64,000 nucleotides of DNA from an uncultured virus (IMG/VR IMGVR_UViG_3300047312_000104) (IMGVR_UViG_3300047312_000104), one strand, 5' to 3'; counted from the first letter of the stretch, positions 1 through 16,848 are shown. The notes: a model not told the origin generated them from the sequence alone. Made by a program: numbers and translations.

Positions 1-57
1 AGCTTCGACTGTTGGATCATCCGGATGTGCTGGATTGGGTCAAACCCGAGAGGATCC

Positions 58-666
58 TTAGACATCCCGGGGGTCTTTGTGGTTGGCGGCGTAGCGGATG
101 ACATCTTTCTCTGATGTCAGGATATGTGATACATCGACTTGACCGTTTGGAGCCTGGGCCGGAGTCGTGATGGACTCGTCGTTACGTACCATGGTTATAT
201 CACCATTCGCCCCAACCCGAAGCTTCTGGACCGGTATCGTGACGCCTACGCTCGCGTTAATCGAGTCGGCCAACGGGACAGGATACATGATGCAAGGCGA
301 CACGTTACGGTCGTGCAGGTTAACGGTGTCGCCCGGGTAACCGATGATCTCGGTAGGGATTCGACGGGCTTTGGACTTGGATCCAGAATCGTTGAAGTGA
401 CTCGGGGTTCCGCCGGTTTCTAGGGCCTTGGCCCGCATAACCTTGTGGTAGTCATAGCCTGGACGCCAGGCCGAGAAGGCCTCTTGGAACTCTCTCTTGG
501 CATCGAAAGCTTTCTGAGCGTCGTCGACCGCCGTTTTAGCTTTAGCCGCGGCCTTCTCGTCTGCCGCCTGTTTTAAGTAAATGACGATAATCGGCCAGCC
601 GAGGATCGCGGCCGAGAAGACTATGGTGGGGACGACGACCCACATGAACCAAGAGAGGGTAAACAT
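58..666 (-). CDS. hypothetical protein with N-terminal transmembrane helix
   Basis: 202-aa ORF, hydrophobic N-terminus, 1 nt from upstream ORF. Confidence 0.7.
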   Translation of the reverse strand: MFTLSWFMWVVVPTIVFSAAILGWPIIVIYLKQAADEKAAAKAKTAVDDAQKAFDAKREFQEAFSAWRPGYDYHKVMRAKALETGGTPSHFNDSGSKSKARRIPTEIIGYPGDTVNLHDRNVSPCIMYPVPLADSINASVGVTIPVQKLRVGANGDITMVRNDESITTPAQAPNGQVDVSHILTSEKDVIRYAANHKDPRDV

Positions 667-667
667 A

Positions 668-919
668 TTAGGCCTTCACTGTGAGGAGTTCTTTGAAGAT
701 ACGCTTGAGCCGGCCAGGCCCATCATACGGGCCATGGTACGAAACTGTCCAGGAGGCAACGTCGTCACGACCAGCAACGGTTGACCGGTACTGGGACCCA
801 AGGGGAGTCGGGTGAGCGCGAAACAGGGCGCCGCAGATGTGGCGTGTAAGCCACCAGAGGACCTGACCGAGCAGGAGCCCTAGACCCAAGTTAAGGATAA
901 AGGTTAGGTGGAAGTCCAA
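668..919 (-). CDS. small membrane protein
   Basis: hydrophobic N-terminus; AAGGGGACCC just before TTG start. Confidence 0.6.
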   Translation of the reverse strand: MDFHLTFILNLGLGLLLGQVLWWLTRHICGALFRAHPTPLGSQYRSTVAGRDDVASWTVSYHGPYDGPGRLKRIFKELLTVKA

Positions 920-939
920 GGGGTCCCCTTATGGGCTAC

Positions 940-966
940 AGGATAAGGGGATTAACTGTGAGTCAA
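940..966 (-). promoter_or_regulatory. putative promoter TTGACT-N15-TATCCT
   Basis: recurrent motif with fixed 15-nt spacer, just after the last tRNA. Confidence 0.55.
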
Positions 967-970
967 GAGA

Positions 971-1045
971 TGGTTCACGAGCAGGGATTCAAACCCCGGT
1001 TCATCGCTTCAAAGGCGACAGTCTTATCAATTAGACGACTCGTGA
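971..1045 (-). tRNA. tRNA-Gln(TTG)
   Basis: cloverleaf, anticodon arm GTCGC-CTTTGAA-GCGAT, CCA encoded. Confidence 0.9.
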
Positions 1046-1049
1046 GTGA

Positions 1050-1126
1050 TGGTTGCCCCAGGAGGTCTCGAACCTCCATCACCGGCTTCAGAGACCGGGG
1101 TTATTACCTGGTTAAACTACAGGGCA
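1050..1126 (-). tRNA. tRNA-Gln(CTG)
   Basis: CCGGT-CTCTGAA-GCCGG, TTCGAGA T-loop, CCA. Confidence 0.92.
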
Positions 1127-1131
1127 TCGAA

Positions 1132-1208
1132 TGGTGGGGGCGGTGGGATTTGCACCCACAGGGAAGATGCGTTTAAGGCATCCACGTCTGCTGTTCCGTC
1201 ACACCCCT
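1132..1208 (-). tRNA. tRNA-Leu(TAA), short variable loop
   Basis: GATGC-CTTAAAC-GCATC, A73, CCA. Confidence 0.88.
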
Positions 1209-1211
1209 AGA

Positions 1212-1287
1212 TGGTCCCCCTCCCCGGATTTGAACCGGGATCAGACTGTTTTTGAAACAGCCGCCTCTGCCGTTGGGCTAGAAGGGG
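1212..1287 (-). tRNA. tRNA-Leu(CAA), short variable loop
   Basis: GCTGT-TTCAAAA-ACAGT, A73, CCA. Confidence 0.9.
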
Positions 1288-1288
1288 A

Positions 1289-1364
1289 TGGTACCGATCC
1301 TGGGGGTTGCACCCAGACTTTGTAGTCTCTCAAACTACTGCCTCTGCTATTGGGCTAGACCGGT
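1289..1364 (-). tRNA. tRNA-Leu(GAG), short variable loop
   Basis: GTAGT-TTGAGAG-ACTAC, A73, CCA. Confidence 0.9.
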
Positions 1365-1367
1365 AAG

Positions 1368-1443
1368 TGGTACCGAGAGAGGGATTTGCACCCACACTGA
1401 ACTGGTTCTAAGCCAGCTGCCTCTGCTGTTGGGCTATCTCGGC
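1368..1443 (-). tRNA. tRNA-Leu(TAG), short variable loop
   Basis: GCTGG-CTTAGAA-CCAGT, A73, CCA. Confidence 0.9.
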
Positions 1444-1478
1444 GTGATTACTGTATTGATGTCAAAGATCTATAAAAC

Positions 1479-1508
1479 ACAAAAACCCGACCTTTCGGCC
1501 GGGTTTTT
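1479..1508 (-). terminator. intrinsic terminator of attenuator A
   Basis: minus strand AAAAACCCGGCC-GAAA-GGTCGGGTTTTT: GC stem, GNRA loop, U-tract, just upstream of the Leu/Gln tRNAs. Confidence 0.85.
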
Positions 1509-1549
1509 GGGTTCACCTTTACGGTGTTTTCGGTCTAGGCGACCATCCC

Positions 1550-1615
1550 TTAACCACGGCCATGAGGCTGAGGTAACTGTTGGAGCAACAGGAGGAGGGA
1601 CAGGGTGGTACGCAT
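1550..1615 (-). CDS. Leu/Gln-rich leader peptide MRTTLSLLLLLQQLPQPHGRG (attenuator A)
   Basis: ATG CGT ACC ACC CTG TCC CTC CTC CTG TTG CTC CAA CAG TTA CCT CAG CCT CAT GGC CGT GGT TAA; not in ORF track (too short); last codons complementary to terminator 5' arm. Confidence 0.85.
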   Translation of the reverse strand: MRTTLSLLLLLQQLPQPHGRG

Positions 1616-1625
1616 GACGACTCTA

Positions 1626-1653
1626 AGGATAAACCATAGGGGATCTGATGCAA
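1626..1653 (-). promoter_or_regulatory. putative promoter of leader A (TTGCAT-N16-TATCCT), overlapped by inverted repeat CATAGGGG...CCCCTATG
   Basis: -10 ends 10 nt before leader ATG. Confidence 0.5.
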
Positions 1654-1663
1654 GCCCCTATGT

Positions 1664-1677
1664 GGTAGATATCTCAA
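1664..1677. repeat. 14-bp inverted repeat, partner at 7647-7660
   Basis: GGTAGATATCTCAA is the exact reverse complement of TTGAGATATCTACC. Confidence 0.85.
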
Positions 1678-1679
1678 GA

Positions 1680-1758
1680 TGGTCCAAGTGGGAGGGCTGT
1701 TCACCTCCTAGCTCCGCGTTAAAAGCACGGCCCCTCGCCTCATTCGGGTTTCACTTGG
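1680..1758 (-). tRNA. tRNA-Lys(TTT), atypical (A8, 8-nt T-loop)
   Basis: acceptor CCAAGTG/CACTTGG, CCGTG-CTTTTAA-CGCGG, CCA. Confidence 0.8.
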
Positions 1759-2147
1759 TTAAGTTTTTTCTTACGTCTTAGATCTCGTTGATATGCATTA
1801 TTAGCCTCGCGGCATACGTCGCAGCGGCAATAGTGTCGGTAACTGGATTTGGTGCCGTGTAGTCCTTTCGTAGGCGACTGCCCGAGATCAACGATGGTTT
1901 TAGCAGTATGACAAGTTTGACAGAGAATTTGACACTTAATGAGCTCAGCCTCAAACCTGGCCTTGGAAACGCTCCACTTATTGCCCAATCCAAAAAGTTT
2001 GGTACTAGGGTCAACGTGGTCCAATTGTAAGTCGCGTGTGCTACTACATTTAATGCACTTACCGCCTAGTCTAATTATGGCGTCAGCCATGCGAGCGCGA
2101 TAACGCTTCAGCATGTACGTACGCATATATTCGGCTGAATTCGACAT
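1740..2147 (-). CDS. HNH endonuclease
   Basis: CxxC...LQLDHVDP...CQILCQTCH motif; AT-richer than flanks; start taken at MSNSAEY because longer ORF overlaps tRNAs. Confidence 0.85.
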   Translation of the reverse strand: MSNSAEYMRTYMLKRYRARMADAIIRLGGKCIKCSSTRDLQLDHVDPSTKLFGLGNKWSVSKARFEAELIKCQILCQTCHTAKTIVDLGQSPTKGLHGTKSSYRHYCRCDVCREANNAYQRDLRRKKKLNQVKPE

Positions 2148-2189
2148 GGATTTGATCATGAAGACATAACAGCTAGTGCAATAGACAAA

Positions 2190-2264
2190 TGGGTTCATAG
2201 ACGGGAATCGCACCCGCGTTACCTGCGCCACAAGCAAGTGTCCTGCTATTGAACGACTATGAAC
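2190..2264 (-). tRNA. tRNA-His(GTG)
   Basis: CTTGC-TTGTGGC-GCAGG, encoded G-1 pairing with C73, CCA. Confidence 0.92.
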
Positions 2265-2271
2265 ATGAAAA

Positions 2272-2343
2272 TGGCCCGGGGCCAGGGGATTGAACCCTGC
2301 AAGCTCGGTTTTGGAGGCCAAGCACCGCCCTAGCGGGCCCCAG
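2272..2343 (-). tRNA. tRNA-Trp(CCA), reduced D-arm
   Basis: loop CTCCAAA, G73, TTCAATC T-loop, CCA. Confidence 0.8.
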
Positions 2344-2349
2344 ATGAAA

Positions 2350-2424
2350 TGGTCCGAACACTAGGGGTTGCACCTAGCTCGCACAGATTTATCAGACCTG
2401 GCGCGACAACTGGTCGATGTTCGG
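2350..2424 (-). tRNA. tRNA-Ile(GAT), reduced D-arm
   Basis: CAGGT-CTGATAA-ATCTG, 1-nt connector, CGAC-CAGTT-GTCG D-arm, CCA. Confidence 0.85.
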
Positions 2425-2712
2425 TTATGTGCGCTTGATGAAGCGCGGGTCCTTCTGAAATTCTTTGTAGGTGATCCGGGTGTTGGGTTTGGCCCCACAG
2501 CCTGTGATCAGCGACGAGCCGCTAGACAGCGACACGAAGTCGATTCCGCGCCGACCGTGCCTGCCGGTGAACTCCTTGTATCGTAACACCGCGCAGCCTG
2601 ACCCATCACAACGAATGCATACGACCGCGTTCCCATCCCCCTCGCACATCCCGCTATAGAGCCCCGTACCCCCGCACTCACCACACTCGGTGTCGATCTG
2701 CTTGGTAGCCAC
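2425..2712 (-). CDS. DnaJ-type CxxCxGxG zinc-finger protein
   Basis: CGECGGTG and CIRCDGSG. Confidence 0.75.
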   Translation of the reverse strand: MATKQIDTECGECGGTGLYSGMCEGDGNAVVCIRCDGSGCAVLRYKEFTGRHGRRGIDFVSLSSGSSLITGCGAKPNTRITYKEFQKDPRFIKRT

Positions 2713-2713
2713 G

Positions 2714-2980
2714 TTAGGGTCCGTTCTTGAGCCAGTTTTGATACTCGGGCCGTGCTTCGATTTCCTTGCACGCTTCCTTGAACCGGAACTGGATGTGGTC
2801 GTAGAGGGAGAAGTGGTGGGCGGAAGCTTCGAGGAGGAGACGGTCCACTGCCAACATGTGGATCAGGGGTCCACATGAGATGCTGAAGACAACCTGCTGA
2901 TCCTGGATGACCGGAGTAGGGTCGTCGTAGTCATCCCGGCAGAGATGTAGTTTGGGGGCCGTGTCGGGAGTTTCGGACAT
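2714..2980 (-). CDS. hypothetical protein
   Basis: ORF abutting next gene; ATG start MSETPD. Confidence 0.6.
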   Translation of the reverse strand: MSETPDTAPKLHLCRDDYDDPTPVIQDQQVVFSISCGPLIHMLAVDRLLLEASAHHFSLYDHIQFRFKEACKEIEARPEYQNWLKNGP

Positions 2981-3014
2981 GCCCACATGCTCTATGGCGG
3001 GAAAGGATGTCAAG

Positions 3015-3088
3015 TGGTGCTCATGCGAGGAATCGCACCTCGATCACACCCATACCAGGGGCGTGTACTTCTGTTGTACTACACGAGC
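3015..3088 (-). tRNA. tRNA-Thr(GGT)
   Basis: CGCCC-CTGGTAT-GGGTG, CCA. Confidence 0.9.
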
Positions 3089-3094
3089 GTAAAA

Positions 3095-3165
3095 TGGTGC
3101 CCCCAGGAGGACTTTACCTCCGTCGCAGCGGTACAAAGGCTGCATCCTAGCTAGACGATAGGGGC
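3095..3165 (-). tRNA. tRNA-Thr(TGT), short D-loop
   Basis: loop TTTGTAC (C-C mismatch at base), T-loop TAAAGTC, CCA. Confidence 0.8.
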
Positions 3166-3172
3166 GTAAGAA

Positions 3173-4015
3173 TCAGATGACTGGAAGAAGGCTACCGCAT
3201 TCGTGACAGAACTTGGCGTCCTTGGCCAGCTTAGTCCCGCACCCATGACAGTACTGGACCTTGGCCGCAACCTTAGGCTCCTCGCCGGTCTTGGGGGCGT
3301 GGACGGTAAACCGGAACTCAGAATACTGATCATCCCCGGCCCAGGTGGTGGTCCCAAAGGTCTGGTTCGAGTTAGCGCCCCCGACCGTGGCCCCCTTGAG
3401 CCCGTCTGAGATCGCTGCCTCAGGGGCCAGACCCCTGGTGGGGCTGCAACTCTCGACACAACAGTCGAGGGTCGTGTGGGACATGTTGCTCATCCCATAT
3501 GTGGTGGGCGGCATCGGGGTGCTGGACCCGAGAGTAATCTGGTGGTCCCACCACGGGTGGGTGGGCCAGGATGGATAGGCTGGATTATAGGGCCAGGACG
3601 ATGGGCGGTACGGAGGGTACTGGTCGCAGATCTTCTTCCACTCGTCGATCTTGGGCGTGTCCTTCTCGGTCCACACTTTGACCACAATATGGCCATTGTC
3701 GGGCGACCCAGGATCCTGGACGGCCCCGTGGTCCTTCTTGACGAACTTGAACCGTTCCGACGACTGGATGAACCGTTCGAGGGTATCCGTTGGACCCGAG
3801 AAGATCAATTCCCCGATCGAGCTCCCATCGATCCAAAATTGGACCCGGCGGCGCTTCCCGTCAGTGGTCTTGATCCGGAAGCTATACTCGGTCCCGAACG
3901 GAATGGGGACCCTTGAGCGGCTTACATCACCCTCACGAGCGTGCTCGTATTCCCGGAAGGTCTTCCCGGTATTGGTGTCTTGAAGCGTAATAACGCAATT
4001 GCTGTAATGCATCAT
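3173..4015 (-). CDS. protein with C-terminal zinc ribbon
   Basis: 280 aa, ends YCHGCG...FCHECG; AAGGGGG RBS. Confidence 0.8.
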   Translation of the reverse strand: MMHYSNCVITLQDTNTGKTFREYEHAREGDVSRSRVPIPFGTEYSFRIKTTDGKRRRVQFWIDGSSIGELIFSGPTDTLERFIQSSERFKFVKKDHGAVQDPGSPDNGHIVVKVWTEKDTPKIDEWKKICDQYPPYRPSSWPYNPAYPSWPTHPWWDHQITLGSSTPMPPTTYGMSNMSHTTLDCCVESCSPTRGLAPEAAISDGLKGATVGGANSNQTFGTTTWAGDDQYSEFRFTVHAPKTGEEPKVAAKVQYCHGCGTKLAKDAKFCHECGSLLPVI

Positions 4016-4110
4016 TGGTTCCCCTTTTTAATCCGACCAGCGGCGGATGGTTTAGCTGGTAAGGAAATGGTGCGCCTTGAGTCTGACAAAAACTAACTAG
4101 GAGTCAATAG

Positions 4111-4185
4111 TGGAGTCGGTAGGGGGAATTGCACCCCCATCATCTGCTTGGAAGGCAGTCATTCTAGCTGTTGAACTATACCGAC
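4111..4185 (-). tRNA. tRNA-Gly(TCC)
   Basis: loop CTTCCAA, U73, CCA. Confidence 0.92.
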
Positions 4186-4192
4186 ATGTTGA

Positions 4193-4268
4193 TGGTGCCG
4201 TCGAGAGGAATTGCACCCCCGGTCTGCTCGATACGAATGAGCTGCTTTGCTGTCTAAGCTACAACGGC
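4193..4268 (-). tRNA. tRNA-Thr(CGT)
   Basis: loop TTCGTAT, CCA. Confidence 0.9.
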
Positions 4269-4273
4269 AGGAA

Positions 4274-4347
4274 TGGTCTGAACCCTAGGAGTTGGACCTA
4301 GCGAGAGCGCTTTATAAGAACGCCATGGCCGACCGGGCCAGATTCAG
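4274..4347 (-). tRNA. tRNA-Ile(TAT), reduced D-arm
   Basis: GCGTT-CTTATAA-AGCGC, GGCC-CGGTC-GGCC D-arm, CCA. Confidence 0.82.
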
Positions 4348-4350
4348 AGA

Positions 4351-4422
4351 TGGTCGCCAGAGGTGGAATTGCGCCACCCAACATGAGCTTATGAAACTCA
4401 GTTACCCCTTGGGTGTCTGGCG
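4351..4422 (-). tRNA. tRNA(CAT), Ile2 or elongator Met, reduced D-arm
   Basis: TGAGT-TTCATAA-GCTCA; same architecture as the two Ile tRNAs. Confidence 0.8.
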
Positions 4423-4423
4423 A

Positions 4424-4498
4424 TGGCCTCGTGGGACGGACTTGCACCGTCGTCGCGGCCTTCGGAGAGCCGTGTCCTATCTGTTAGACGACCACGAG
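4424..4498 (-). tRNA. tRNA-Arg(CCG)
   Basis: CGGCT-CTCCGAA-GGCCG, CCA. Confidence 0.92.
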
Positions 4499-4501
4499 AA
4501 A

Positions 4502-4575
4502 TGGAACGGACAGACGGGGTTGCGCCGTCGTACTCTCGTTGGCAACGAGACGCTCTACTGTTGAGCTATGTCCGC
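4502..4575 (-). tRNA. tRNA-Gly(GCC)
   Basis: TCTCG-TTGCCAA-CGAGA, U73, CCA. Confidence 0.92.
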
Positions 4576-4580
4576 ATGAA

Positions 4581-4657
4581 TGGTCCGCCGTGAAGGACTT
4601 GCGCCTTCATCCTTCGGGTAAGAACCGAATGCCTCTATCTGTTTAGGCCTACGGCGG
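4581..4657 (-). tRNA. tRNA-Lys(CTT)
   Basis: TTCGG-TTCTTAC-CCGAA, A8, CCA. Confidence 0.88.
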
Positions 4658-4663
4658 AGAAGA

Positions 4664-4744
4664 TGGACATGCCCGGGTGAATTTCACACCTGACTGGCCC
4701 GGTTGCAACGGGTCACCCGAATTTCGAGTTTAGGTTCGAGCATG
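4664..4744 (-). tRNA. tRNA-Cys(GCA), atypical 8/4 fold
   Basis: loop TTGCAAC, U73-CCA, 8-bp acceptor, 4-bp T-stem. Confidence 0.7.
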
Positions 4745-4754
4745 TTAAACTGGT

Positions 4755-5102
4755 TCAAAAAAGAAGCCAAAGGGTCGGGCAATCGGCTGGGTCCTCTGAG
4801 ATCTTTTGGGTGAGCTCTTCACGGATCTTGAGCAACTCCTTGGTCCAATCCCATGGGAAGGCGGGGCTGGGGTCCATCTTGTGAGCCAAAGGGATCTCCT
4901 TCAGCTCGTTCATGGTGAGGTGCCAACAGGTGATCAGGTACTGCCTCGTCTGGGCAGCACACTGGACCTTGTTGGTTTCACCCAAGATGTGAGGGGAGCC
5001 GAGGGTCTGCTTGTCCAACCTCTGGGCTGCCGAGAGCTCGCGGAGTTTGGCCCGGCAGTACTGGATATGGAGGCCTGTGATGGGATTACGGGTTGGGAGC
5101 AT
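4755..5102 (-). CDS. hypothetical protein
   Basis: ATG start MLPTRNP overlapping end of Pth2-like gene. Confidence 0.6.
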   Translation of the reverse strand: MLPTRNPITGLHIQYCRAKLRELSAAQRLDKQTLGSPHILGETNKVQCAAQTRQYLITCWHLTMNELKEIPLAHKMDPSPAFPWDWTKELLKIREELTQKISEDPADCPTLWLLF

Positions 5103-5451
5103 TTGGTGTCCACAATCTATGGTGTCTAAAGAGGCGCCTCGCGGCGCCGGTGATGGGAGCGGTCGCGAAGGCAGTCGCCTGATTTCCGATGTCAGGCTCA
5201 CGGAACAATATGTAGGGGATCTGGGCGGCGTCAAGCCGAGCGGCTTCATCGAGTAGCTGCTGTTCAGAAACAACACCACAGACCACTAATGCACTAGGGT
5301 CCGCGGGGGAGCATTGGGGGCCAGGTACCAGGCCTTTAGAAAGATGAATGCCAGCCTCGTGGGTGGCGTGAGCGGCTTGCACCAGCTGTTGTGCGATAGA
5401 CAGATCTTGTCTGACCAGCACGTAGACGTATAGAGTTTCCTAAGCCTTCAT
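5086..5451 (-). CDS. peptidyl-tRNA hydrolase type 2 (Pth2)-like protein with in-frame TAG at codon 4
   Basis: LYVYVLVRQDL...QLVQAAHA...FREPD...TAFATAP resembles PTH2 family; ATG AAG GCT TAG GAA ACT CTA TAC GTC TAC GTG CTG in frame. Confidence 0.8.
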
Positions 5452-6209
5452 GGTTGCATCCTGATCAGGCGGGCAGGCGCCGTCAAGTACTTACTAGTTG
5501 CCGGGCTGTGCCAGTCGCACCCGGCCAAACGCCGACGCTCTAAAGCTATGTCGTTGTCTATGTTGCGGTATGCGGGGCTGCTCAATAATGTTTCGACGAA
5601 GTTAAACAAGCCAGCCTCCCGTAGTACTGACTTATCGTATTCCGAAAACGCAATCCCAGATCCGGCCGTGTTGAAACGAGGCCTCAGGGCATGAATAAGC
5701 GCCGATTCAATCATACTCATTGTGTGTTCTTGAACTTCGAAATAGAAGACAAACTCCGGCGTAAGTCTTTGAGACTTAGTTTTGATAGCTCCACGGTGAC
5801 CTCGTTGGCGATCTCCTATACTGGTCGTTTTACCTATGTAAGTAATCTCGTTACTATTTATATGGAAATATATGCAAGCAAAAGATCTATAAAGAACATG
5901 CTCACGAACTCTGTCAGCTATGGTCTCAAGACAAGCCGGCACTGGTGGCGTGGCACCCAGATTACGAAGACACGGTATAGGCCACACGTGCCCCCAGGCT
6001 TGATATGTCTTACTCCAAATATCTAACTCTTTTTTAACGTATCGGATACGTCTAGTGCCACCCTTCGTTAATTGAATACTTATAGTAGGTAACCAGTTTT
6101 GACGAGAAAATAAAGAAAATCGCTCAATAGGCATATGTAAATAATCAGCAGCCTGCTCCGCGGTAAGAAGTTGGCCGGACTTCATTAATTTACTATACTT
6201 AGGCAACAT
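5448..6209 (-). CDS. HTH + GIY-YIG-like protein, probable homing endonuclease
   Basis: LLTAEQAADYL excisionase-type HTH; CIYF...YIGKT...R...H...E...FN; AT-rich. Confidence 0.75.
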   Translation of the reverse strand: MLPKYSKLMKSGQLLTAEQAADYLHMPIERFSLFSRQNWLPTISIQLTKGGTRRIRYVKKELDIWSKTYQAWGHVWPIPCLRNLGATPPVPACLETIADRVREHVLYRSFACIYFHINSNEITYIGKTTSIGDRQRGHRGAIKTKSQRLTPEFVFYFEVQEHTMSMIESALIHALRPRFNTAGSGIAFSEYDKSVLREAGLFNFVETLLSSPAYRNIDNDIALERRRLAGCDWHSPATSKYLTAPARLIRMQP

Positions 6210-6226
6210 TAAGCAACCCTTTGAAG

Positions 6227-6299
6227 CGTCTCCGACAGGAGTCGAACCTGCCTAGGGGAGTTTAGAATTCCCTGCCTCATGCCGATCAGCCACGGAGAC
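6227..6299 (-). tRNA. amber suppressor tRNA(CTA), CCA not encoded
   Basis: acceptor GTCTCCG/CGGAGAC-G73, GGGAA-TTCTAAA-CTCCC, T-arm GCAGG-TTCGACT-CCTGT. Confidence 0.85.
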
Positions 6300-6309
6300 A
6301 TGGGTGCCA

Positions 6310-6336
6310 ATCGTAGCCGTGAAGCGGGGAAGTCAA
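6310..6336 (-). promoter_or_regulatory. putative promoter TTGACT-N15-TACGAT for suppressor tRNA unit
   Basis: recurrent motif, 10 nt upstream of tRNA(CTA). Confidence 0.55.
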
Positions 6337-6338
6337 GA

Positions 6339-6415
6339 TGGTCTAGGTGAGAGGATTTGCACCTCCGACATCACGGTCCCAAACCGTGCGCTCTGCTAAA
6401 CTGAGCTACACCCAG
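6339..6415 (-). tRNA. tRNA-Pro(TGG)
   Basis: CACGG-TTTGGGA-CCGTG, CCA. Confidence 0.92.
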
Positions 6416-6422
6416 ATGAAAA

Positions 6423-6496
6423 TGGCGCCCCCACCCGGTGATGCTCCGGGCTTTCCTGATCGACAATCAGGCGTTCTGCTGATGAACCATGAAGGC
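6423..6496 (-). tRNA. tRNA-Asp(GTC)
   Basis: CCTGA-TTGTCGA-TCAGG, G73, CCA. Confidence 0.88.
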
Positions 6497-6500
6497 AAAA

Positions 6501-6575
6501 TGGTGGACCCGGGGAGACTTAAACTCCCAACTTCCTCGGTGCAAGCGAGGCATTCTATATTGGAATTACAGGCCC
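6501..6575 (-). tRNA. tRNA-Ala(TGC)
   Basis: loop CTTGCAC, G3-U70, CCA. Confidence 0.92.
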
Positions 6576-6577
6576 AA

Positions 6578-6694
6578 AACCACGCTTTCTACCCAGGCTA
6601 CTAGACTGGCTCTAAGGCCAGCGGGCGCGTGAACCCGATCGCTGCTGCCAAACTCTTCATCCATTGTAAATGAAGTGGCGGACAAGGCAGCGAA
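6578..6694 (-). ncRNA. unassigned structured RNA between tRNA-Met and tRNA-Ala
   Basis: long hairpin TCGCTGC..GCCA-CTTCAT..ATGAAG..TGGC-A-GCAGCGA plus CACGC/GCGTG-closed domain. Confidence 0.35.
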
Positions 6695-6696
6695 GA

Positions 6697-6773
6697 TGGT
6701 TGCGTGAGGCTGGACTTGCACCAGCGTTTTCGAGCTTATGAGACTCGCGAGATGGCTACTTCTCTACTCCGCA
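6697..6773 (-). tRNA. tRNA-Met(CAT), initiator-like
   Basis: CGAGT-CTCATAA-GCTCG, A11-U24, bulged acceptor, CCA. Confidence 0.82.
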
Positions 6774-6780
6774 GTGAAAA

Positions 6781-6870
6781 TGGAGCCCAGAGGTGGATTT
6801 ACGCCACCGACCTCCGCCTGTTAGGGCGGCGCTCTAGACCCCTTTCGGGACCCTGTTGAGCTACCTGGGC
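6781..6870 (-). tRNA. atypical tRNA-like gene: 6-nt anticodon loop CTAACA, hairpin inserted in D-loop
   Basis: acceptor GCCCAGG/TCTGGGC-U-CCA, D-stem GCTC/GAGC, CCGCC/GGCGG stem, GGTGG/CCACC T-stem. Confidence 0.65.
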
Positions 6871-6915
6871 ATGAGACTGAACTGTAACGAGCGGCACGAG
6901 ACCGCAAATCGAAAA

Positions 6916-6990
6916 TGGTAGGCAGTGAGGGAGTCGCACCCCCGACATCTGGAATGTAAAACCAGCGTTCCGCTGTTGAACTAACCGCCC
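6916..6990 (-). tRNA. tRNA-Val(TAC)
   Basis: loop TTTACAT, CCA. Confidence 0.9.
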
Positions 6991-6993
6991 GTG

Positions 6994-7068
6994 TGGCAGG
7001 CCTGGTAGGAATTGAACCTACACCGCGACGTTCGTAGCGTCGCATCATCTCCATTAGAATACAGGCCT
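6994..7068 (-). tRNA. tRNA-Arg(ACG)
   Basis: CGACG-CTACGAA-CGTCG, CCA. Confidence 0.92.
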
Positions 7069-7071
7069 AAA

Positions 7072-7145
7072 TGGTACTCGTAGGCGGTGCTGCCCCGCCT
7101 CTCTTTGGATGAAAGCCAAAGGTCCTACTGTTAGACGATACGAGC
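7072..7145 (-). tRNA. tRNA-Glu(TTC)
   Basis: TTTGG-CTTTCAT-CCAAA, CCA. Confidence 0.88.
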
Positions 7146-7153
7146 AAGAAAGT

Positions 7154-7273
7154 GCCGGCGTTCTACCATTGAACTACACCCTCCGCTTGGCTCTACCGTC
7201 AGTAGTCGGGCCTTGAGTCTAGCGGTCCCTTACGGGCAAGTGGGGCGTCGGGAATCGAACCCGAGTTTCCGGC
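7154..7273 (-). ncRNA. circularly permuted tRNA-like RNA (T-arm first, D-arm last)
   Basis: GCCGG-AAAC-TCGGG-TTCGATT-CCCGA-CGCCC...GGGTG-TA-GTTC-AATGGTA-GAAC-G-CCGGC. Confidence 0.8.
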
Positions 7274-7283
7274 GAGAATTGAA

Positions 7284-7361
7284 TGGTACCCATAGGGGGA
7301 GTCGCACCCCACGTCTTCACCGTGAGAGGGTGACGTCTTATCTAGCTTGGACCATATGGGC
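7284..7361 (-). tRNA. tRNA-Glu(CTC)
   Basis: TCACC-CTCTCAC-GGTGA, CCA. Confidence 0.88.
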
Positions 7362-7368
7362 ATGAAGA

Positions 7369-7437
7369 TGGCTAGGTCGGGCGGACTTTAACCGCCATGT
7401 TCGGTTTTAGGAGAACCAAGACCCATCTGGCGACCTA
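7369..7437 (-). tRNA. tRNA-Arg(CCT), nearly D-armless
   Basis: TTGGTT-CTCCTAA-AACCGA, D region CCAGATGGGTC, G73-CCA. Confidence 0.8.
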
Positions 7438-7443
7438 TCGGGA

Positions 7444-7512
7444 TGGCACGACCGGAAGGACTTTGACCTTCGCGCCTGGGTTTAGAAGACCCTGGACCCA
7501 TCTGGCGATCGT
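7444..7512 (-). tRNA. tRNA-Arg(TCT), nearly D-armless
   Basis: GGGT-CTTCTAA-ACCC, same D region CCAGATGGGTC, G73-CCA. Confidence 0.78.
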
Positions 7513-7521
7513 ATGAAAAAA

Positions 7522-7597
7522 TGGCTGCGGCGGAGGGACTCGAACCCCCTTGCTCCTAGTTAACAGCTAGGTACATGACCAGTTATGTTTCACCGCA
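7522..7597 (-). tRNA. tRNA-Asn(GTT)
   Basis: CCTAG-CTGTTAA-CTAGG, G73, CCA. Confidence 0.92.
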
Positions 7598-7646
7598 ATG
7601 TTGAAGACAAATCAGGGGGCCCCCAGACCATTCCGGAGGTCCCCCG

Positions 7647-7660
7647 TTGAGATATCTACC
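7647..7660. repeat. 14-bp inverted repeat, partner at 1664-1677
   Basis: TTGAGATATCTACC. Confidence 0.85.
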
Positions 7661-7683
7661 GATATAAAGTTGTCAACCGACCT

Positions 7684-7718
7684 AAACGAATGAACCCCGA
7701 GCTTTTGGCCCGGGGTTC
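7684..7718 (-). terminator. intrinsic terminator of attenuator B
   Basis: GAACCCCGGGC-CAAAA-GCTCGGGGTTC-ATTCGTTT (11-bp stem, interrupted U-tract). Confidence 0.75.
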
Positions 7719-7742
7719 CTGGAGTCAGAGTTTTGAGTCCTC

Positions 7743-7871
7743 TTATCCCTTTACCCCGGCCTGATTCTTTTTATTCCCGCGTTCCGCTGTCCTATCGCAC
7801 CCAATAGTGGTACCGTGGACCTTTGCGGGTCTCGGCCACGTGGCGGCTATAGTGGTGACGGTGGGGATCAT
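7743..7871 (-). CDS. 42-aa leader peptide MIPTVTTIAATWPRPAKVHGTTIGCDRTAERGNKKNQAGVKG (attenuator B)
   Basis: between promoter and terminator; amino-acid set matches downstream tRNAs; CCGGGGT near its end pairs with terminator 5' arm. Confidence 0.8.
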   Translation of the reverse strand: MIPTVTTIAATWPRPAKVHGTTIGCDRTAERGNKKNQAGVKG

Positions 7872-7896
7872 TGAAGGTAGCACACTCTGGTTCAGG

Positions 7897-7925
7897 ATGG
7901 TACTAGGAGTCGGATCAAAGGTCAA
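7897..7925 (-). promoter_or_regulatory. sigma70-like promoter TTGACC-N17-TACCAT of leader B
   Basis: -35 at 7920-7925, -10 at 7897-7902. Confidence 0.65.
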
Positions 7926-7928
7926 GCA

Positions 7929-8522
7929 TTAGACGGGAGTGAACGAAGCCTGGAGGACATAGGTACCAGCCGTACGGGCAAAGATCCCACCCGTGTCGGT
8001 CTTGATGTATACGTCCCCGTTAACCCCGACAGCATCATTCGGAGCGGAAGTCCCGAATCTGACGGTGGTCTGAACCGAAGCCGCAATGGCCGCATCTCGG
8101 TTAGTTACTTCGGCCGCTTCGGCTGCCTCGGCCCGCGCCACTTCGGCAATCAGGTCGTTGTTGACGTTCGTGACGCCAACGATTCGGGCGTTCGTTTCAT
8201 CATCTAGCGCATTCGAAAGCGCGGTATCGGCGTTCCCACGGGTAGTGGCTTCGGAGCTAATGGCGTTCGTCAGAACGATGTCAGCAGCAGTCCGGGCAAC
8301 AGTCTCAGCTGTGACGTCGACTCCACCCTCGCCACCAACCTGCACCCACACGGCCGCGCCGTCGATCGACGACGTACAGACGTATTCGTTGGCAGGATTG
8401 GTCAGGGTGTTGATCCACCGAGCCCCTACTTCGAAACCCTGAAGGTGACCATTGGCTGTGGTGGGAACACCAGCGCGCAGCACGTAGAGGTCACGGAGAA
8501 CGGCGAGGGTAAGTCTATGCAT
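7929..8522 (-). CDS. probable virion fibre/decoration protein
   Basis: coiled-coil E..AR..AD repeats; GTSAPNDAVGVNGDVYIKTDTG fibre-type motif. Confidence 0.7.
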   Translation of the reverse strand: MHRLTLAVLRDLYVLRAGVPTTANGHLQGFEVGARWINTLTNPANEYVCTSSIDGAAVWVQVGGEGGVDVTAETVARTAADIVLTNAISSEATTRGNADTALSNALDDETNARIVGVTNVNNDLIAEVARAEAAEAAEVTNRDAAIAASVQTTVRFGTSAPNDAVGVNGDVYIKTDTGGIFARTAGTYVLQASFTPV

Positions 8523-8562
8523 AGGAAGTCCTTAGGGGTAAACCATGGATATGGTAGTAATA

Positions 8563-8590
8563 AAATTATCGAAATATATAGCAGGTACAA
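8563..8590 (-). promoter_or_regulatory. putative structural-gene promoter TTGTAC-N16-TAATTT
   Basis: same motif and spacing at 13103-13130 and 13497-13524. Confidence 0.6.
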
Positions 8591-8626
8591 GAAGCCAGTG
8601 TGGACCCTATCGGGCCCCACTGGCTC
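8589..8626 (-). terminator. hairpin/terminator after long fibre gene
   Basis: GAGCCAGTG...CACTGGCTTC-TT. Confidence 0.5.
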
Positions 8627-14187: not shown

Positions 14188-14562
14188 TTAGTGGCTAGGG
14201 CAGTACCCTTCCCCGTAGTGGATCGATATGTCGAGATCCTGGGCCCCTACTGAGGCCGAAACGTCAAAGGAGAGGACCTGTCCGGCCTTGGCGAAGAAGT
14301 GCGGGGTTGCCTCGAATATGACCATCTGGGAAGACGATGATCCTGCGATATCGCGTAGACCGGGGACTGGGGTGCCGTCGATCGAGACGGACGCGATCAC
14401 TGACCCGACTCTCGTCTTGAGCCCGCATGATCGAATAAAGATGTCGGCAGGGATCCGACCCTCTACGGTGTACCGCATGATCACCGGAGACGGGATTTGC
14501 CCCGAGAACCCCTTGGAGAGGTCCTGGGCTTGGGCAACCCTTCCGGTGTACTTAAGGGCCAC
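14188..14562 (-). CDS. hypothetical beta-sandwich virion protein
   Basis: 124-aa ORF within structural module. Confidence 0.6.
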   Translation of the reverse strand: MALKYTGRVAQAQDLSKGFSGQIPSPVIMRYTVEGRIPADIFIRSCGLKTRVGSVIASVSIDGTPVPGLRDIAGSSSSQMVIFEATPHFFAKAGQVLSFDVSASVGAQDLDISIHYGEGYCPSH

Positions 14563-16846: not shown

Positions 16847-16848
16847 AA

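What the first reader, a model, noticed from the sequence alone, without database searches (positions are those of the whole stretch)
971..7925. Phage tRNA supply gated by codon-matched leader-peptide attenuators (two-cassette system)
Seen: both tRNA cassettes have the layout promoter, short ORF, intrinsic terminator, tRNAs. In both, the last codons of the ORF are complementary to the terminator 5' arm. The two leaders split the amino acids the way the cassettes do: Leu/Gln in A, 15 others in B. Ser, Tyr and Phe tRNAs are absent from the window, and leader B has no S, Y, F or L. Established: this geometry is ribosome-mediated attenuation (trp/his/leu/ilv type), normally controlling biosynthesis or synthetase genes. 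Phage tRNAs are known to offset host anticodon nucleases (PrrC, VapC, PARIS AriB). Inference: the phage senses loss of specific host aminoacyl-tRNAs and then transcribes replacements, an inducible anti-defence or starvation circuit. I know of no description of this for phage tRNA arrays, but could not search.
Basis: partly seen in the sequence, partly recalled or inferred. Interest (0 to 1): 0.97.

Follow-up and report, generated by a model that had tools for sequence, protein, structure and literature searches.

The report
Leader-peptide attenuators gating phage tRNAs
Each of two tRNA gene blocks in a soil phage sits behind a tiny reading frame, spelled in the amino acids those tRNAs carry, and a switchable transcription stop, so the phage probably makes more tRNA when ribosomes read those codons slowly.

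Summary
On the minus strand, two similar modules (7925..7663 and about 1653..1452) each hold a short ORF, a 17-nt box (GGCCGNGGTNAAGGGAT, found exactly only at these two sites) that carries the ORF's stop codon and pairs with the terminator's 5' arm, a strong intrinsic terminator, and then tRNAs.

Leader A (21 codons, 10 Leu/Gln) has a codon for each of the 6 Leu/Gln tRNAs downstream. Only 12 of 66,623 six-frame windows match as well. Leader B (42 codons) uses all 14 amino acids of its 22-tRNA block in 40 of 42 codons. Only 1 of 39,230 windows does this, and that one is leader B itself. Each leader avoids the other block's amino acids.

No relative of this phage could be fetched, so the ORFs' conservation here is untested. 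RBS evidence is weak, and only module B has a clear promoter. The same design occurs in five cultured Microbacterium phages. There the leader is conserved as a peptide and its amino acids equal the tRNA set.

Eight literature searches found no description of this control. Best reading: ribosome-mediated attenuation feeding back on tRNA supply (confidence 0.62). The anti-defence purpose is untested.

The parts
7897..7925 (-). Promoter of module B: -35 TTGACC (7925..7920), 17-nt spacer, -10 TACCAT (7902..7897)
   Evidence: Consensus scan gives 9 of 12 matches. The same TTGACA-17-TACCAT consensus heads the leader ORFs of Microbacterium phages Big4, Zooman and Cece. Function was not tested.
7874..7885 (-). 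GTGTGCTACCTT motif, resembling an extended -10, 2 nt before the ATG of leader B
   Evidence: This is the only match in the window. In Pumpernickel the same motif occurs only at the two tRNA leaders, where 6 nt separate it from the ATG. Its role here is unclear, because the spacing does not fit a leaderless start.
7743..7871 (-). Leader ORF B: 42 codons plus TAA, MIPTVTTIAATWPRPAKVHGTTIGCDRTAERGNKKNQAGVKG
   Evidence: 40 of 42 residues fall in the 14-amino-acid set of block B and all 14 types are present; 1 of 39,230 windows does as well. It holds codons for 19 of the 22 anticodons, and 31 of 42 codons are decodable; 26 of 39,230 windows match both. There is no SD.
7745..7761 (-). Antiterminator box B, GGCCGGGGTAAAGGGAT, overlapping the last codons and stop of leader B
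   Evidence: The exact 17-mer occurs only here and at 1561..1545. It pairs with ACCCCGG(GCC) of the terminator's 5' arm when the 3' arm is absent. Stabilisation is -16.9 kcal/mol, reached by 0 of 1000 shuffles.
7682..7718 (-). Intrinsic terminator B: GAACCCCGGGC-CAAAA-GCTCGGGGTTC followed by a T-rich tail
7663..7676 (-). TTGACAACTTTATA box after terminator B; function unknown
   Evidence: TTGACANCNNTANA matches only here and at 1465..1452. No -10 follows at 16-19 nt.
2190..7597 (-). tRNA block B: 22 tRNAs (Asn, Arg x4, Glu, Val, Met, Ala, Asp, Pro, CTA-anticodon, Lys, Gly x2, Ile x2, Thr x3, Trp, His) interspersed with ORFs (GIY-YIG 6209..5448, 280-aa zinc-ribbon protein 4015..3173, and others)
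1616..1653 (-). Weak promoter candidates for module A: TTGCAT-16-TATCCT and ATCAGA-18-TAGAGT
   Evidence: A relaxed scan scores only 3 of 6 and 4 of 6. This is not convincing.
1550..1615 (-). Leader ORF A: 21 codons plus TAA, MRTTLSLLLLLQQLPQPHGRG. Its Leu and Gln codons (CTG, CTC, TTG, TTA, CAA, CAG) give one for each of the six tRNAs
   Evidence: Coverage is 6 of 6 anticodons with 10 of 21 codons; 12 of 66,623 windows match. A weak SD-like TAGAG lies 5 nt upstream.
1545..1561 (-). Antiterminator box A, GGCCGTGGTTAAGGGAT, containing the stop codon of leader A
   Evidence: It pairs with the 5' arm of the terminator (CCC..AACCCGGCC) at -27.4 kcal/mol when the 3' arm is absent. Stabilisation is -13.4 kcal/mol, reached by 0 of 1000 shuffles. 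In the untranslated leader it is sequestered by ORF codons 2-5 and CCUCAGCC.
1471..1509 (-). Intrinsic terminator A: CAAAAACCCGGCC-GAAA-GGTCGGGTTTTTG followed by TGTTTTAT
1452..1465 (-). TTGACATCAATACA box after terminator A; function unknown
   Evidence: The first tRNA starts 8 nt after the box (17 nt after its TTGACA hexamer), so it cannot serve as a -35 for that tRNA.
971..1443 (-). tRNA cassette A: Leu-TAG, Leu-GAG, Leu-CAA, Leu-TAA, Gln-CTG, Gln-TTG

Best explanation
These are two paralogous ribosome-mediated (leader-peptide) transcription attenuators placed in series. Each gates one block of phage tRNA genes.

Proposed mechanism:
- Transcription enters a short ORF whose codons are the ones read by the tRNAs downstream. 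Leader A uses Leu and Gln codons. Leader B samples the 14 amino acids of block B and avoids Leu, Ser, Phe and Tyr.
- If the ribosome runs quickly to the stop codon, it sits on the 17-nt box that would otherwise pair with the terminator's 5' arm. The terminator then forms and little tRNA is made.
- If the ribosome is slowed anywhere in the leader because charged tRNA for those codons is scarce, the box is free and forms the antiterminator. RNA polymerase then reads on into the tRNA genes.
- New tRNA restores decoding speed and shuts the gate again. This is a negative feedback on tRNA supply.

Shown from sequence: the ORFs, the codon match, the terminators, the alternative pairing and the homology between the two modules. 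Inferred: that the ORFs are translated, that read-through responds to decoding speed, and what physiological trigger applies (host tRNA decay, nuclease attack or starvation).
For: 1. Cassette-specific codon match.
- Leader A: 6 of 6 anticodons covered with 10 of 21 codons; 12 of 66,623 six-frame windows do as well.
- Leader B: 19 of 22 anticodons, and 26 of 39,230 windows do as well. At the amino-acid level, 40 of 42 residues and 14 of 14 types; 1 of 39,230 windows.
- Cross-pairings fall in the opposite tail, at 0.96 and 0.99.

2. Antiterminator. The box pairs with the terminator's 5' arm far better than shuffled sequence does; 0 of 1000 shuffles reached the observed value in either module (folds). 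For A, an anti-antiterminator pairing is also predicted.

3. Homologous modules. The exact 17-mer occurs only at the two sites. The terminators and the TTGACA box are similar. The stop codons lie in the box in different frames. The stretch between promoter and box is unrelated in sequence, and that is the part that carries the matched codons.

4. Specificity of the screen. The same unbiased screen on other phage tRNA loci gave p<0.002 in 1 of 177 ORF/start tests. That one was Pumpernickel.

5. An independent replicate in cultured phages (Pumpernickel, Cece, A3Wally, Big4, Zooman).
- Each has a promoter, 6-7 nt, then an ATG and a 13-17-codon ORF.
- The core Y-E-[L/F]-D-[F/L]-H-L-E-P is conserved, with synonymous changes (CTC/CTA, GAC/GAT, TTT/TTC, CTA/CTG, CCT/CCC).
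- The core's amino acids plus Met equal the downstream tRNA set (Pro, His, Met, Asp, Glu, Tyr, Phe, Leu).
- The stop codon lies inside a partial copy of the terminator's 3' arm.
- The five leaders score 2/8,712 to 66/38,333 against the null.
- Pumpernickel's second leader matches its second block (14 of 27,969) and not the first.

6. No known RNA family covers the leaders.
Against: - No relative of this phage could be fetched, so neither leader ORF has been shown to be conserved in its own lineage.
- Leader B has no Shine-Dalgarno sequence. Leader A has only TAGAG, while about half of the 29 real genes I inspected show AAGGA- or GGAG-like sites, by my own reading of the printed sequences.
- The GTGTGCTACCTT motif lies 2 nt from the ATG of leader B, which does not fit the leaderless geometry seen in the Microbacterium phages.
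- No convincing promoter precedes leader A. The stretch aligned to B's promoter (TTTATC-17-TACCAC) overlaps the ATG of leader A.
- CTGTTG-CTC-CAACAG in leader A is a perfect hairpin, because Leu and Gln codons are reverse complements of each other. This accounts for 5 of the 10 L/Q codons without any selection on codons.
- For B no anti-antiterminator is predicted, so an untranslated leader would read through by default.
- Leader B carries mostly single codons of each kind, unlike the runs of regulatory codons in classical attenuators.
- It also holds Cys (TGC), GAA and AAA codons, which no tRNA in the window reads under the conservative wobble rules used.
- In three of the five Microbacterium phages the antiterminator shuffle test is weak: 60, 62 and 74 of 500 shuffles reached the observed value.
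- The design is absent from most other phage arrays screened.
Confidence: 0.62

Rival explanations
1. The terminator/antiterminator switch is real, but something other than a translating ribosome sets it, such as a phage or host RNA-binding protein, a small RNA or a tRNA. The short ORFs would then be incidental.
For: - The 17-nt box is conserved at the nucleotide level and is read in different frames in A and B.
- RBS evidence for the leaders is weak or absent.
- A conserved TTGACA box of unknown role accompanies the terminators here and in the Microbacterium phages.
- Leader A contains a perfect hairpin.
Against: - It does not explain why the variable part of each module is an open frame whose codons match its own cassette and avoid the other's.
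- It does not explain why the Microbacterium leader is conserved as a peptide with synonymous changes.
- No T-box or other Rfam family matches.
Confidence: 0.13
2. These are ordinary terminators. Hairpin B ends the tail-fibre operon and hairpin A ends the HNH/tRNA unit. The tRNAs would be made by leaky read-through or from promoters not recognised here, and the ORF composition and the complementarity would be coincidence.
For: - Terminator B lies 211 nt after the stop of gene 8522..7929, and terminator A lies 231 nt after the HNH gene.
- Terminator-like sites as a class are not above chance in 1..10000: 10 found against 8.5+-3.1 in shuffles.
Against: - The per-site probabilities are about 2e-4 and 7e-4 to 3e-5.
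- 0 of 1000 shuffles reached the observed antiterminator stabilisation, in both modules.
- The exact 15-specified-base box occurs only at the two sites.
- Only 36 nt separate the stem of terminator A from the first tRNA, which leaves no room for a promoter.
- 177 control tests in other phage loci gave one comparable hit.
Confidence: 0.1
3. The leaders are translated, but they act as a general sensor of ribosome speed or of ribosome-polymerase coupling, for example overall translation capacity after host shut-off. They would not be codon-specific sensors.
For: - Leader B samples 16 amino-acid types, mostly once or a few times each.
- It has no predicted anti-antiterminator, so any delay or a lack of ribosomes gives read-through.
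Against: - Leader A is dominated by Leu and Gln codons.
- Leader B excludes Leu, Ser, Phe and Tyr, which a general sensor has no need to do.
- The same split is seen between the two Pumpernickel leaders.
Confidence: 0.1
4. The short ORFs encode small functional peptides, such as a Leu-rich membrane peptide, or another overlapping frame is the real gene (the 61-codon frame 1704..1519). In either case the ORFs would be unrelated to tRNA control.
For: - MRTTLSLLLLL looks like a signal or membrane segment.
- A 61-codon GTG ORF overlaps leader A in another frame.
Against: - The 61-codon frame is not matched to the cassette (p=0.17).
- The 60-aa frame of B has no homologue on record.
- This reading does not explain the stop codon sitting inside the antiterminator in both modules.
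Confidence: 0.05

Closest known systems
Leader-peptide transcription attenuators of amino-acid operons (leu leader with a Leu run; multivalent thr and ilvGMEDA leaders); named from my own knowledge, with the general principle as stated in the abstract of PMC1183508 (search listing)
   Same: A short ORF rich in regulatory codons, a stop codon next to an RNA segment that can pair with either an upstream segment or the terminator's 5' arm, and an intrinsic terminator before the regulated genes.
   Different: - The regulated products are tRNAs, not biosynthetic enzymes.
- The element is in a phage.
- Leader B samples 14 amino acids, mostly without runs.
- There is no sequence similarity to the Rfam leader families.
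Attenuators of aminoacyl-tRNA synthetase genes: the pheST leader peptide (recalled) and T-box riboswitches
   Same: They adjust the decoding machinery in response to the charged or uncharged tRNA level through a terminator/antiterminator choice.
   Different: - T-box elements bind uncharged tRNA directly and need no ORF. No T-box match was found here.
- With T-box logic, more tRNA would give more read-through, which is the wrong sign for control of a tRNA gene.
Leaderless polycysteine short ORFs acting as Cys-responsive attenuators in mycobacteria (bioRxiv 10.1101/834739; I saw only the search listing and the start of the abstract)
   Same: Very short ORFs without an SD sense the supply of one amino acid and control downstream genes. 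The Microbacterium phage leaders have exactly the leaderless geometry: a -10, 6-7 nt, then ATG.
   Different: Those control operonic protein genes of the cell. In the window itself the leaderless geometry is not met (2-4 nt spacing).
Leader ORFs before the tRNA blocks of Microbacterium phages Pumpernickel, Cece, A3Wally, Big4 and Zooman (found here; not annotated in those records)
   Same: - A TTGAC[A/C]-17-TACCAT promoter.
- A short ORF spelled in the block's amino acids.
- A stop codon inside a partial copy of the terminator's 3' arm.
- TTGACA next to the terminator.
- Two leaders that split the amino acids the way the blocks do.
- Leader A here and four of the five leaders there begin ATGCGTA.
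   Different: - No protein or long DNA similarity to the window was found.
- There TTGACA sits in the terminator loop rather than after the tail.
- The leaders are 13-23 codons long.
Phage tRNAs as replacements for host tRNAs lost to decay or to anticodon nucleases (PMC11555353 and PMC11464382; search listings and starts of abstracts only)
   Same: They give a reason why a phage would want tRNA supply to follow need.
   Different: In what I saw of those papers (search listings and starts of abstracts only), no leader ORF or terminator switch upstream of the tRNA genes is mentioned. Nothing in the window links it to a particular nuclease.

Membership tests
Ribosome-mediated (leader-peptide) transcription attenuation | A short ORF with a start codon and ribosome-binding site between the promoter and the terminator | tested here: inconclusive
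   ATG ORFs of 21 and 42 codons exist. Only B has a clear promoter. The SD is weak for A (TAGAG) and absent for B.
Ribosome-mediated (leader-peptide) transcription attenuation | Leader enriched in codons that report on the regulated product | tested here: met
   A: 12 of 66,623 windows match. B: 26 of 39,230 at codon level and 1 of 39,230 at amino-acid level. Cross-pairings give 0.96 and 0.99.
Ribosome-mediated (leader-peptide) transcription attenuation | An intrinsic terminator between the leader and the regulated genes | tested here: met
   A 13-bp and an 11-bp G+C-rich hairpin, each with a T-rich tail, lie 36 nt and 94 nt (stem end to tRNA start) before the first tRNA.
Ribosome-mediated (leader-peptide) transcription attenuation | An antiterminator that uses the terminator's 5' arm and is mutually exclusive with the terminator | tested here: met
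   Folds. Stabilisation is -13.4 and -16.9 kcal/mol, with 0 of 1000 shuffles reaching either value. This is in silico only.
Ribosome-mediated (leader-peptide) transcription attenuation | Stop codon placed so that a terminating ribosome masks the antiterminator strand | tested here: met
   The stop codons lie inside (A) or at the end of (B) the 17-nt box.
Ribosome-mediated (leader-peptide) transcription attenuation | An anti-antiterminator (1:2) pairing that gives termination when the leader is not translated | tested here: inconclusive
   Predicted for A: ACCACCC and CCUCAGCC pair with the box. Not predicted for B.
Ribosome-mediated (leader-peptide) transcription attenuation | Leader ORF conserved in relatives | not testable with these tools
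   No relative's DNA was reachable. The feature is met in the analogous Microbacterium phage leaders.
Ribosome-mediated (leader-peptide) transcription attenuation | Read-through rises when the cognate charged tRNA is scarce | not testable with these tools
   This needs experiments. No RNA run is listed for this sequence.
Rfam leader families (Leu, His, Thr, Trp leaders and others) and T-box | A match to the covariance model | tested here: not met
   No family other than tRNA matched at E<=0.1 in window 1..12000, or over the Pumpernickel leader 1 region. The only other hits in L147 are a sub-threshold tmRNA match at 14194..14274 (23.3 bits against 47, at an annotated tRNA-Glu) and a sub-threshold mir-4878 match (25 bits against a gathering score of 100) at 18747..18808, over the terminator of leader 2. 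I read both as chance or as tRNA-derived.
Phage counter-defence against anticodon nucleases | The tRNAs replace species cleaved by a host nuclease, and expression is induced by the attack | not testable with these tools
   The host is unknown and no whole genome is held.

The most novel reading that the evidence does not exclude
Some large phages run a demand-driven tRNA supply. Each tRNA block is gated by a leader ORF that acts as a codon mirror of the block's anticodons, so the phage measures how well the cell decodes exactly those codons and tops up only the set that is short.

The device arose or spread in at least two unrelated phage groups: this soil phage and the Microbacterium phages of the Pumpernickel group. 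A conserved 37-codon ORF before a KVP40 tRNA block may be a third case.

It could act as an inducible answer to host tRNA decay or to anticodon-nuclease defence.
Probability: 0.5. Interest if true: 0.92.

Novelty: new variant of a known kind. Interest (0 to 1): 0.86.

Why it matters
Leader-peptide attenuation is a textbook mechanism, but eight full-text searches found no report of it controlling tRNA genes, in phages or in cells. Phage tRNA arrays are usually discussed as constitutive codon-usage aids or as counter-defence.

A built-in sensor would mean that phages regulate tRNA supply by measuring decoding directly. It would also give a readable rule: the leader's codon set predicts which tRNAs it controls.

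The idea can be tested at once in a cultured, harmless system. Microbacterium foliorum with phages Big4, Zooman, A3Wally or Pumpernickel carries the same design.

It also offers compact parts for synthetic biology that respond to the supply of chosen tRNAs.

Tried and rejected
Relatives of this phage. None of these searches gave usable DNA:
- Megablast of 900..8000 against phages found nothing.
- Distant blastn of 960..1720 found only single tRNA-Leu hits.
- The search for related loci with the neighbouring proteins 7929..8522, 11615..12796, 58..666 and 3173..4015 in viral contigs gave no close relative. Only L044 carried a tRNA array, and it is unrelated.
- The 280-aa protein has two relatives in the protein collection, P0002 (64%, NCBI) and P0003 (55%, Logan), but their DNA could not be reached.
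- The genome contigs and metagenome-contig scans picked generic zinc-ribbon patterns and returned nothing useful.
- Plasmids gave no match.
- Exact-pattern scans of viral contigs for the leader A core and for the 17-mer plus terminator gave 0 hits.
- The 60-aa frame of leader B has no homologue on record.
- Five IMG/VR contigs sharing the 393-aa structural protein have no comparable tRNA arrays.

Sequencing runs. No RNA holder is listed. Contigs from four soil or rhizosphere runs are identical over the parts they cover and show no variant in 1440..1740 or 7590..7930, so they give no comparative information.

Host. tblastn of two conserved proteins gave mixed hosts, and the 280-aa protein hits Xanthomonas and Stenotrophomonas jumbo phages at only 23-26%. 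The host remains unknown. The promoter consensus shared with the Microbacterium phages is only a hint of an actinobacterial host.

Stop-codon recoding as a reason for the CTA tRNA: rejected. Reading TAG as sense raises minus-strand ORF cover (ORFs of 100 aa or more) less than reading TGA or TAA as sense does (50,593 nt against 58,900 and 52,642; code 11 gives 45,646) and leaves the longest ORF unchanged.

Covariation counting on the five-phage alignment was dropped, because the arms are not aligned column for column. Per-sequence folds and shuffles were used instead.

Other phages screened without a convincing case:
- T5, whose tRNA groups have their own annotated promoters.
- S-CRM01, Bxz1, phiCbK and XacN1.
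- 80 IMG/VR loci around tRNA-Leu genes: 61 tests, best p=0.003.
- Five uncultured jumbo phages: 33 tests, none below 0.05.
- KVP40: a 37-codon ORF is conserved across VH7D, VS2, nt-1 and D480, with indels of 3 nt that keep the frame (counted by eye on the alignment), before an almost invariant terminator (its stem is identical in all five; 2-3 loop positions vary). Its codon match is only p=0.005-0.02, and I did not look for an antiterminator. I leave it as a lead.

Full report
WHAT IS THERE

The window is 57% G+C and phage-like. It encodes a tail fibre with DUF5907 repeats, several endonuclease VII and HNH genes, and an AAA ATPase, and almost all genes lie on the minus strand. Its contig comes from a JGI/IMG soil sample and is 159,059 bp long. 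No whole genome is held.

Positions 971..7597 carry 28 minus-strand tRNA genes.
- ARAGORN at default settings finds 19 and at a relaxed threshold 27.
- Rfam finds 23, including one at 6575..6504 whose anticodon loop I read as Ala-TGC.
- Cassette A (1443..971) is Leu-TAG, Leu-GAG, Leu-CAA, Leu-TAA, Gln-CTG and Gln-TTG.
- Block B (7597..2190) has 22 tRNAs for 14 amino acids plus a tRNA with a CTA anticodon. ORFs are interspersed: a GIY-YIG gene, an HNH gene and a 280-aa zinc-ribbon protein.
- No Ser, Tyr, Phe or Cys tRNA is in the window.
- Three of the tRNAs (Trp-CCA, Arg-CCT, Arg-TCT) rest on relaxed ARAGORN alone.

THE TWO MODULES

My hairpin scan lists many minus-strand stems of 9 bp or more. 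By my reading only three are perfect G+C-rich stems followed by a T-rich tail: 52963, 7718 and 1509. The last two stand directly before block B and cassette A.

Upstream of each is a short ATG ORF.
- Leader A, 1615..1550: MRTTLSLLLLLQQLPQPHGRG.
- Leader B, 7871..7743: 42 codons.

The two modules are homologous.
- The box GGCCGNGGTNAAGGGAT occurs exactly only at 1561..1545 and 7761..7745.
- The terminators are alike (AACCCGGCC-GAAA-GGTCGGG and AACCCCGGGCC-AAAA-GCTCGGGG).
- A TTGACAnCnnTAnA box follows both T-rich tails.
- The stop codons lie in the box but in different frames (GGT-TAA in A, GGGA-TAA in B). The box is therefore conserved as nucleic acid, not as peptide.
- The stretch between the promoter region and the box is unrelated in the two modules. 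That stretch carries the codons.

THE SWITCH

If the terminator's 3' arm is left out, as it is during transcription, the box pairs with the terminator's 5' arm, at -27.4 kcal/mol for A and -24.4 for B.

Adding the 5' arm to the 50 nt upstream stabilises the fold by -13.4 kcal/mol (A) and -16.9 (B). Dinucleotide shuffles of the upstream part give -4.3+-2.5 and -6.0+-2.7, and 0 of 1000 reached the observed value in either case.

In the full untranslated leader A, the box is instead held by ORF codons 2-5 (ACCACCC) and by CCUCAGCC, and the terminator forms. This is the 1:2 / 2:3 / 3:4 logic of the trp type. For B no such 1:2 pairing is predicted.

A ribosome at the stop codon would cover the box. 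A ribosome held at the Leu/Gln codons (1603..1574) would leave it free.

THE CODON MATCH

Leader A holds CTG, CTC, TTG, TTA, CAA and CAG, which gives a cognate codon for each of the six tRNAs of cassette A.

Against all stop-free six-frame windows of the same length in the 64 kb:
- Leader A: 12 of 66,623 windows reach 10 or more decodable codons together with 6 of 6 anticodons.
- Leader B: it covers 19 of 22 anticodons with 31 of 42 decodable codons, matched by 26 of 39,230 windows.
- At the amino-acid level, 40 of 42 residues of leader B lie in the 14-type set of block B and all 14 types are present. Only 1 of 39,230 windows does this, which is leader B itself.
- The cross-pairings fall in the opposite tail: leader A against set B 0.96, leader B against set A 0.99.

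Simpler counts agree.
- Leader A is the only one of 350 short ATG ORFs with L+Q at 10/21 or more.
- It is the only cluster of 10-codon windows with 9 or more L/Q among 91,980 windows.
- Leader B is the longest L/S/F/Y-free run of 24,224, although runs of 41, 41 and 36 exist elsewhere.

It takes every terminator-like hairpin within 130 nt before a tRNA and every ORF/start of 10-80 codons ending within 90 nt upstream. In the window it finds exactly these two hairpins. It makes 12 tests, and leaders A (1.8e-4) and B (1.4e-3; Ala was missed by ARAGORN) come out best.

WHAT WEAKENS IT

- The promoter is clear only for B: TTGACC-17-TACCAT at 7925..7897. A has only weak candidates. The stretch of A that aligns with B's promoter overlaps the ATG of leader A.
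- About half of the 29 real genes I inspected show AAGGA- or GGAG-like sites, by my own reading. Leader A has only TAGAG and leader B nothing.
- CTGTTG-CTC-CAACAG in leader A is a perfect hairpin, because Leu and Gln codons are reverse complements. This accounts for five of the ten L/Q codons.
- Leader B holds one Cys codon, one GAA and one AAA that no tRNA in the window reads under conservative wobble rules, and one Gln codon that belongs to cassette A.
- The longer GTG and TTG starts of its frame add S, L and F and weaken the match, to p=0.004 and p=0.02.
- Above all, no relative of this phage could be fetched (see Tried and rejected), so conservation of the frames in this lineage is untested.
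- Four soil runs hold identical sequence only.

THE SAME DESIGN ELSEWHERE

I ran the screen on tRNA regions of other phages.
- Nine loci (Pumpernickel, T5, KVP40, S-CRM01 in two pieces, Bxz1, phiCbK, XacN1 and one IMG/VR contig) gave 83 tests, 5 of them with p<0.01.
- 80 IMG/VR loci around tRNA-Leu genes gave 61 tests, 1 with p<0.01.
- Five uncultured jumbo phages gave 33 tests, none below 0.05.
- In all, 1 of 177 tests fell below 0.002. The screen therefore does not hand out low values freely, and the design is not universal.

That one case, Microbacterium phage Pumpernickel, turned out to be a close functional twin of the window. The head of its first tRNA block (Pro x3, His, Met, Asp, Glu x2, Phe, Leu x4) runs in this order:
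- GTGTGCTACCAT, then 6 nt, then ATG;
- the ORF MRTYELDFHLEPR;
- a stop codon inside GGTAGGGGTC, a partial copy of the terminator's 3' arm;
- a 13-bp terminator.

Four relatives at 71-76% DNA identity (Cece, A3Wally, Big4, Zooman) keep the following:
- the promoter (TTGACA-17-TACCAT in three of them);
- the 6-7 nt spacing to the ATG, which is the geometry of leaderless mRNAs;
- the peptide core Y-E-[L/F]-D-[F/L]-H-L-E-P, with synonymous changes (CTC/CTA, GAC/GAT, TTT/TTC, CTA/CTG, CCT/CCC);
- a box that changes together with the terminator arm (GGGGTC with GACCCT in two phages; GGGAGTCT with AGGCTCC[C/T] in three).

The amino acids of the core plus Met are exactly the set served by the block: Pro, His, Met, Asp, Glu, Tyr, Phe and Leu. 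The five leaders score 2/8,712 to 66/38,333 against their own loci. These scores are not independent, because the leaders are homologous.

Pumpernickel's second leader, MFSSKRNQWTRTVSSVNGISGLR, stands before the Ser/Lys/Gly/Thr/Val/Asn/Arg/Trp/Gln block and has the same geometry.
- 20 of 23 residues and 10 of 11 types match that block; 14 of 27,969 windows do as well.
- Each Pumpernickel leader avoids the other block's amino acids (0.995 and 0.92).

The antiterminator shuffle test there is mixed: 3, 27, 60, 62 and 74 of 500 shuffles for the five phages, and 15 of 500 for the second leader.

Links to the window:
- the same promoter consensus;
- GTGTGCTACC directly before leader B, the only match in the window, while in Pumpernickel's 30 kb it occurs only at the two leaders;
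- ATGCGTA at the start of leader A and of four of the five Microbacterium leaders;
- TTGACA beside the terminator.

I found no protein or long DNA similarity between the phages.

HOW IT MOST LIKELY WORKS

The best-supported reading is ribosome-mediated attenuation used as feedback on tRNA supply.
- Quick decoding of the leader puts the ribosome on the box, the terminator forms, and few tRNAs are made.
- Slow decoding of codons served by the block leaves the box free, the antiterminator forms, and polymerase reads into the tRNA genes until decoding recovers.
- A and B lie in series on one strand. Cassette A therefore needs either its own weak promoter or read-through from B.

Shown: the ORFs, the codon match, the terminators, the alternative pairing and the homology. 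Inferred: translation of the leaders, the response to decoding speed and the trigger.

Host tRNA decay, or rising demand from phage codon usage, would serve equally well.

COMPARISON WITH WHAT IS KNOWN

The mechanism is that of the leu, thr and ilv leader attenuators. The regulated product and the setting are new. No Rfam family other than tRNA matches the leaders in the window. Over the Pumpernickel leaders there is only a sub-threshold miRNA-family match at the second terminator, which I read as chance.

Eight full-text searches found no paper that describes leader-peptide attenuation of tRNA genes. I saw only listings and the starts of abstracts. Subscription journals are not covered, and older work on the T5 or T4 tRNA regions may be missing.

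Seven earlier notes of this scan propose the same kind of element in other genomes. They are leads from agents like me, not independent evidence, and I did not test them.

VERDICT

The attenuator reading is supported as far as sequence analysis can go. The anti-defence purpose stays open.

Confidence in the mechanism is 0.62. I rate it a new variant of a known kind, with high interest, because it can be tested directly in cultured Microbacterium phages.

Noticed in passing
window 971..1443 (-): All four tRNA-Leu genes are 76-77 nt long, so they lack the long variable arm of bacterial tRNA-Leu. Similar short tRNA-Leu genes are annotated in Bacillus, Microbacterium, Mycobacterium and Pseudomonas phages.
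   Followed up: partly
window 6226..6299 (-): A tRNA with a CTA anticodon, an amber-suppressor type that ARAGORN labels 'Pyl'. The window nevertheless reads well in the standard code, and TAG is the rarest stop: 3 of 35 ORFs of 150 aa or more.
   Followed up: partly
window 1452..1465 and 7663..7676 (-); L147, L159-L162: A TTGACA box accompanies the leader terminators in both phage groups. It lies after the T-rich tail here and in the terminator loop in the five Microbacterium phages. No -10 follows it in the window. Its function is unknown.
   Followed up: partly
window 1740..2321, 5448..6209, 16292..16882, 29310..29864, 42946..43551 (-): Many homing-type nucleases: an HNH (phrog_4234) and a GIY-YIG gene inside the tRNA region, and three endonuclease VII paralogues elsewhere. 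Two of the endonuclease VII genes share a 97-nt repeat (family D7).
   Followed up: no
window 3173..4015 (-): A 280-aa protein with a C-terminal zinc ribbon sits in the middle of tRNA block B. It has two relatives, at 64% and 55% identity, on large contigs. It also has distant homologues (23-26%) in the Xanthomonas and Stenotrophomonas jumbo phages XacN1, CM1 and RAS14. Its function is unknown.
   Followed up: partly
window 8625..11615 (-): A 996-aa tail-fibre-like protein built of seven 174-nt (58-aa) tandem repeats with DUF5907 matches.
   Followed up: no
L148 (phage T5) 10618..10893 (-): ORF T5.072 holds WEGWEGEIEWLYFY. This is the only site in the 23-kb T5 tRNA region where an 18-codon window has 11 or more W/E/Y/F (2 overlapping windows of 17,243). 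It lies just before the tRNA-Tyr/Glu/Trp/Phe group, but the annotated promoter P14a sits between them. T5.070, with 6 Cys in 42 residues, directly precedes tRNA-Cys.
   Followed up: partly
L153 (phage KVP40) minus strand, about 3584..3750; L163-L166: A 37-codon ORF with an SD-like GAGAG is conserved in VH7D, VS2, nt-1 and D480, with indels of 3 nt that keep the frame (counted by eye on the alignment). It is followed by an almost invariant terminator (stem identical in all five phages, 2-3 loop positions vary) before a block of 11 tRNAs. Its codon match is modest, at p=0.005-0.02.
   Followed up: partly
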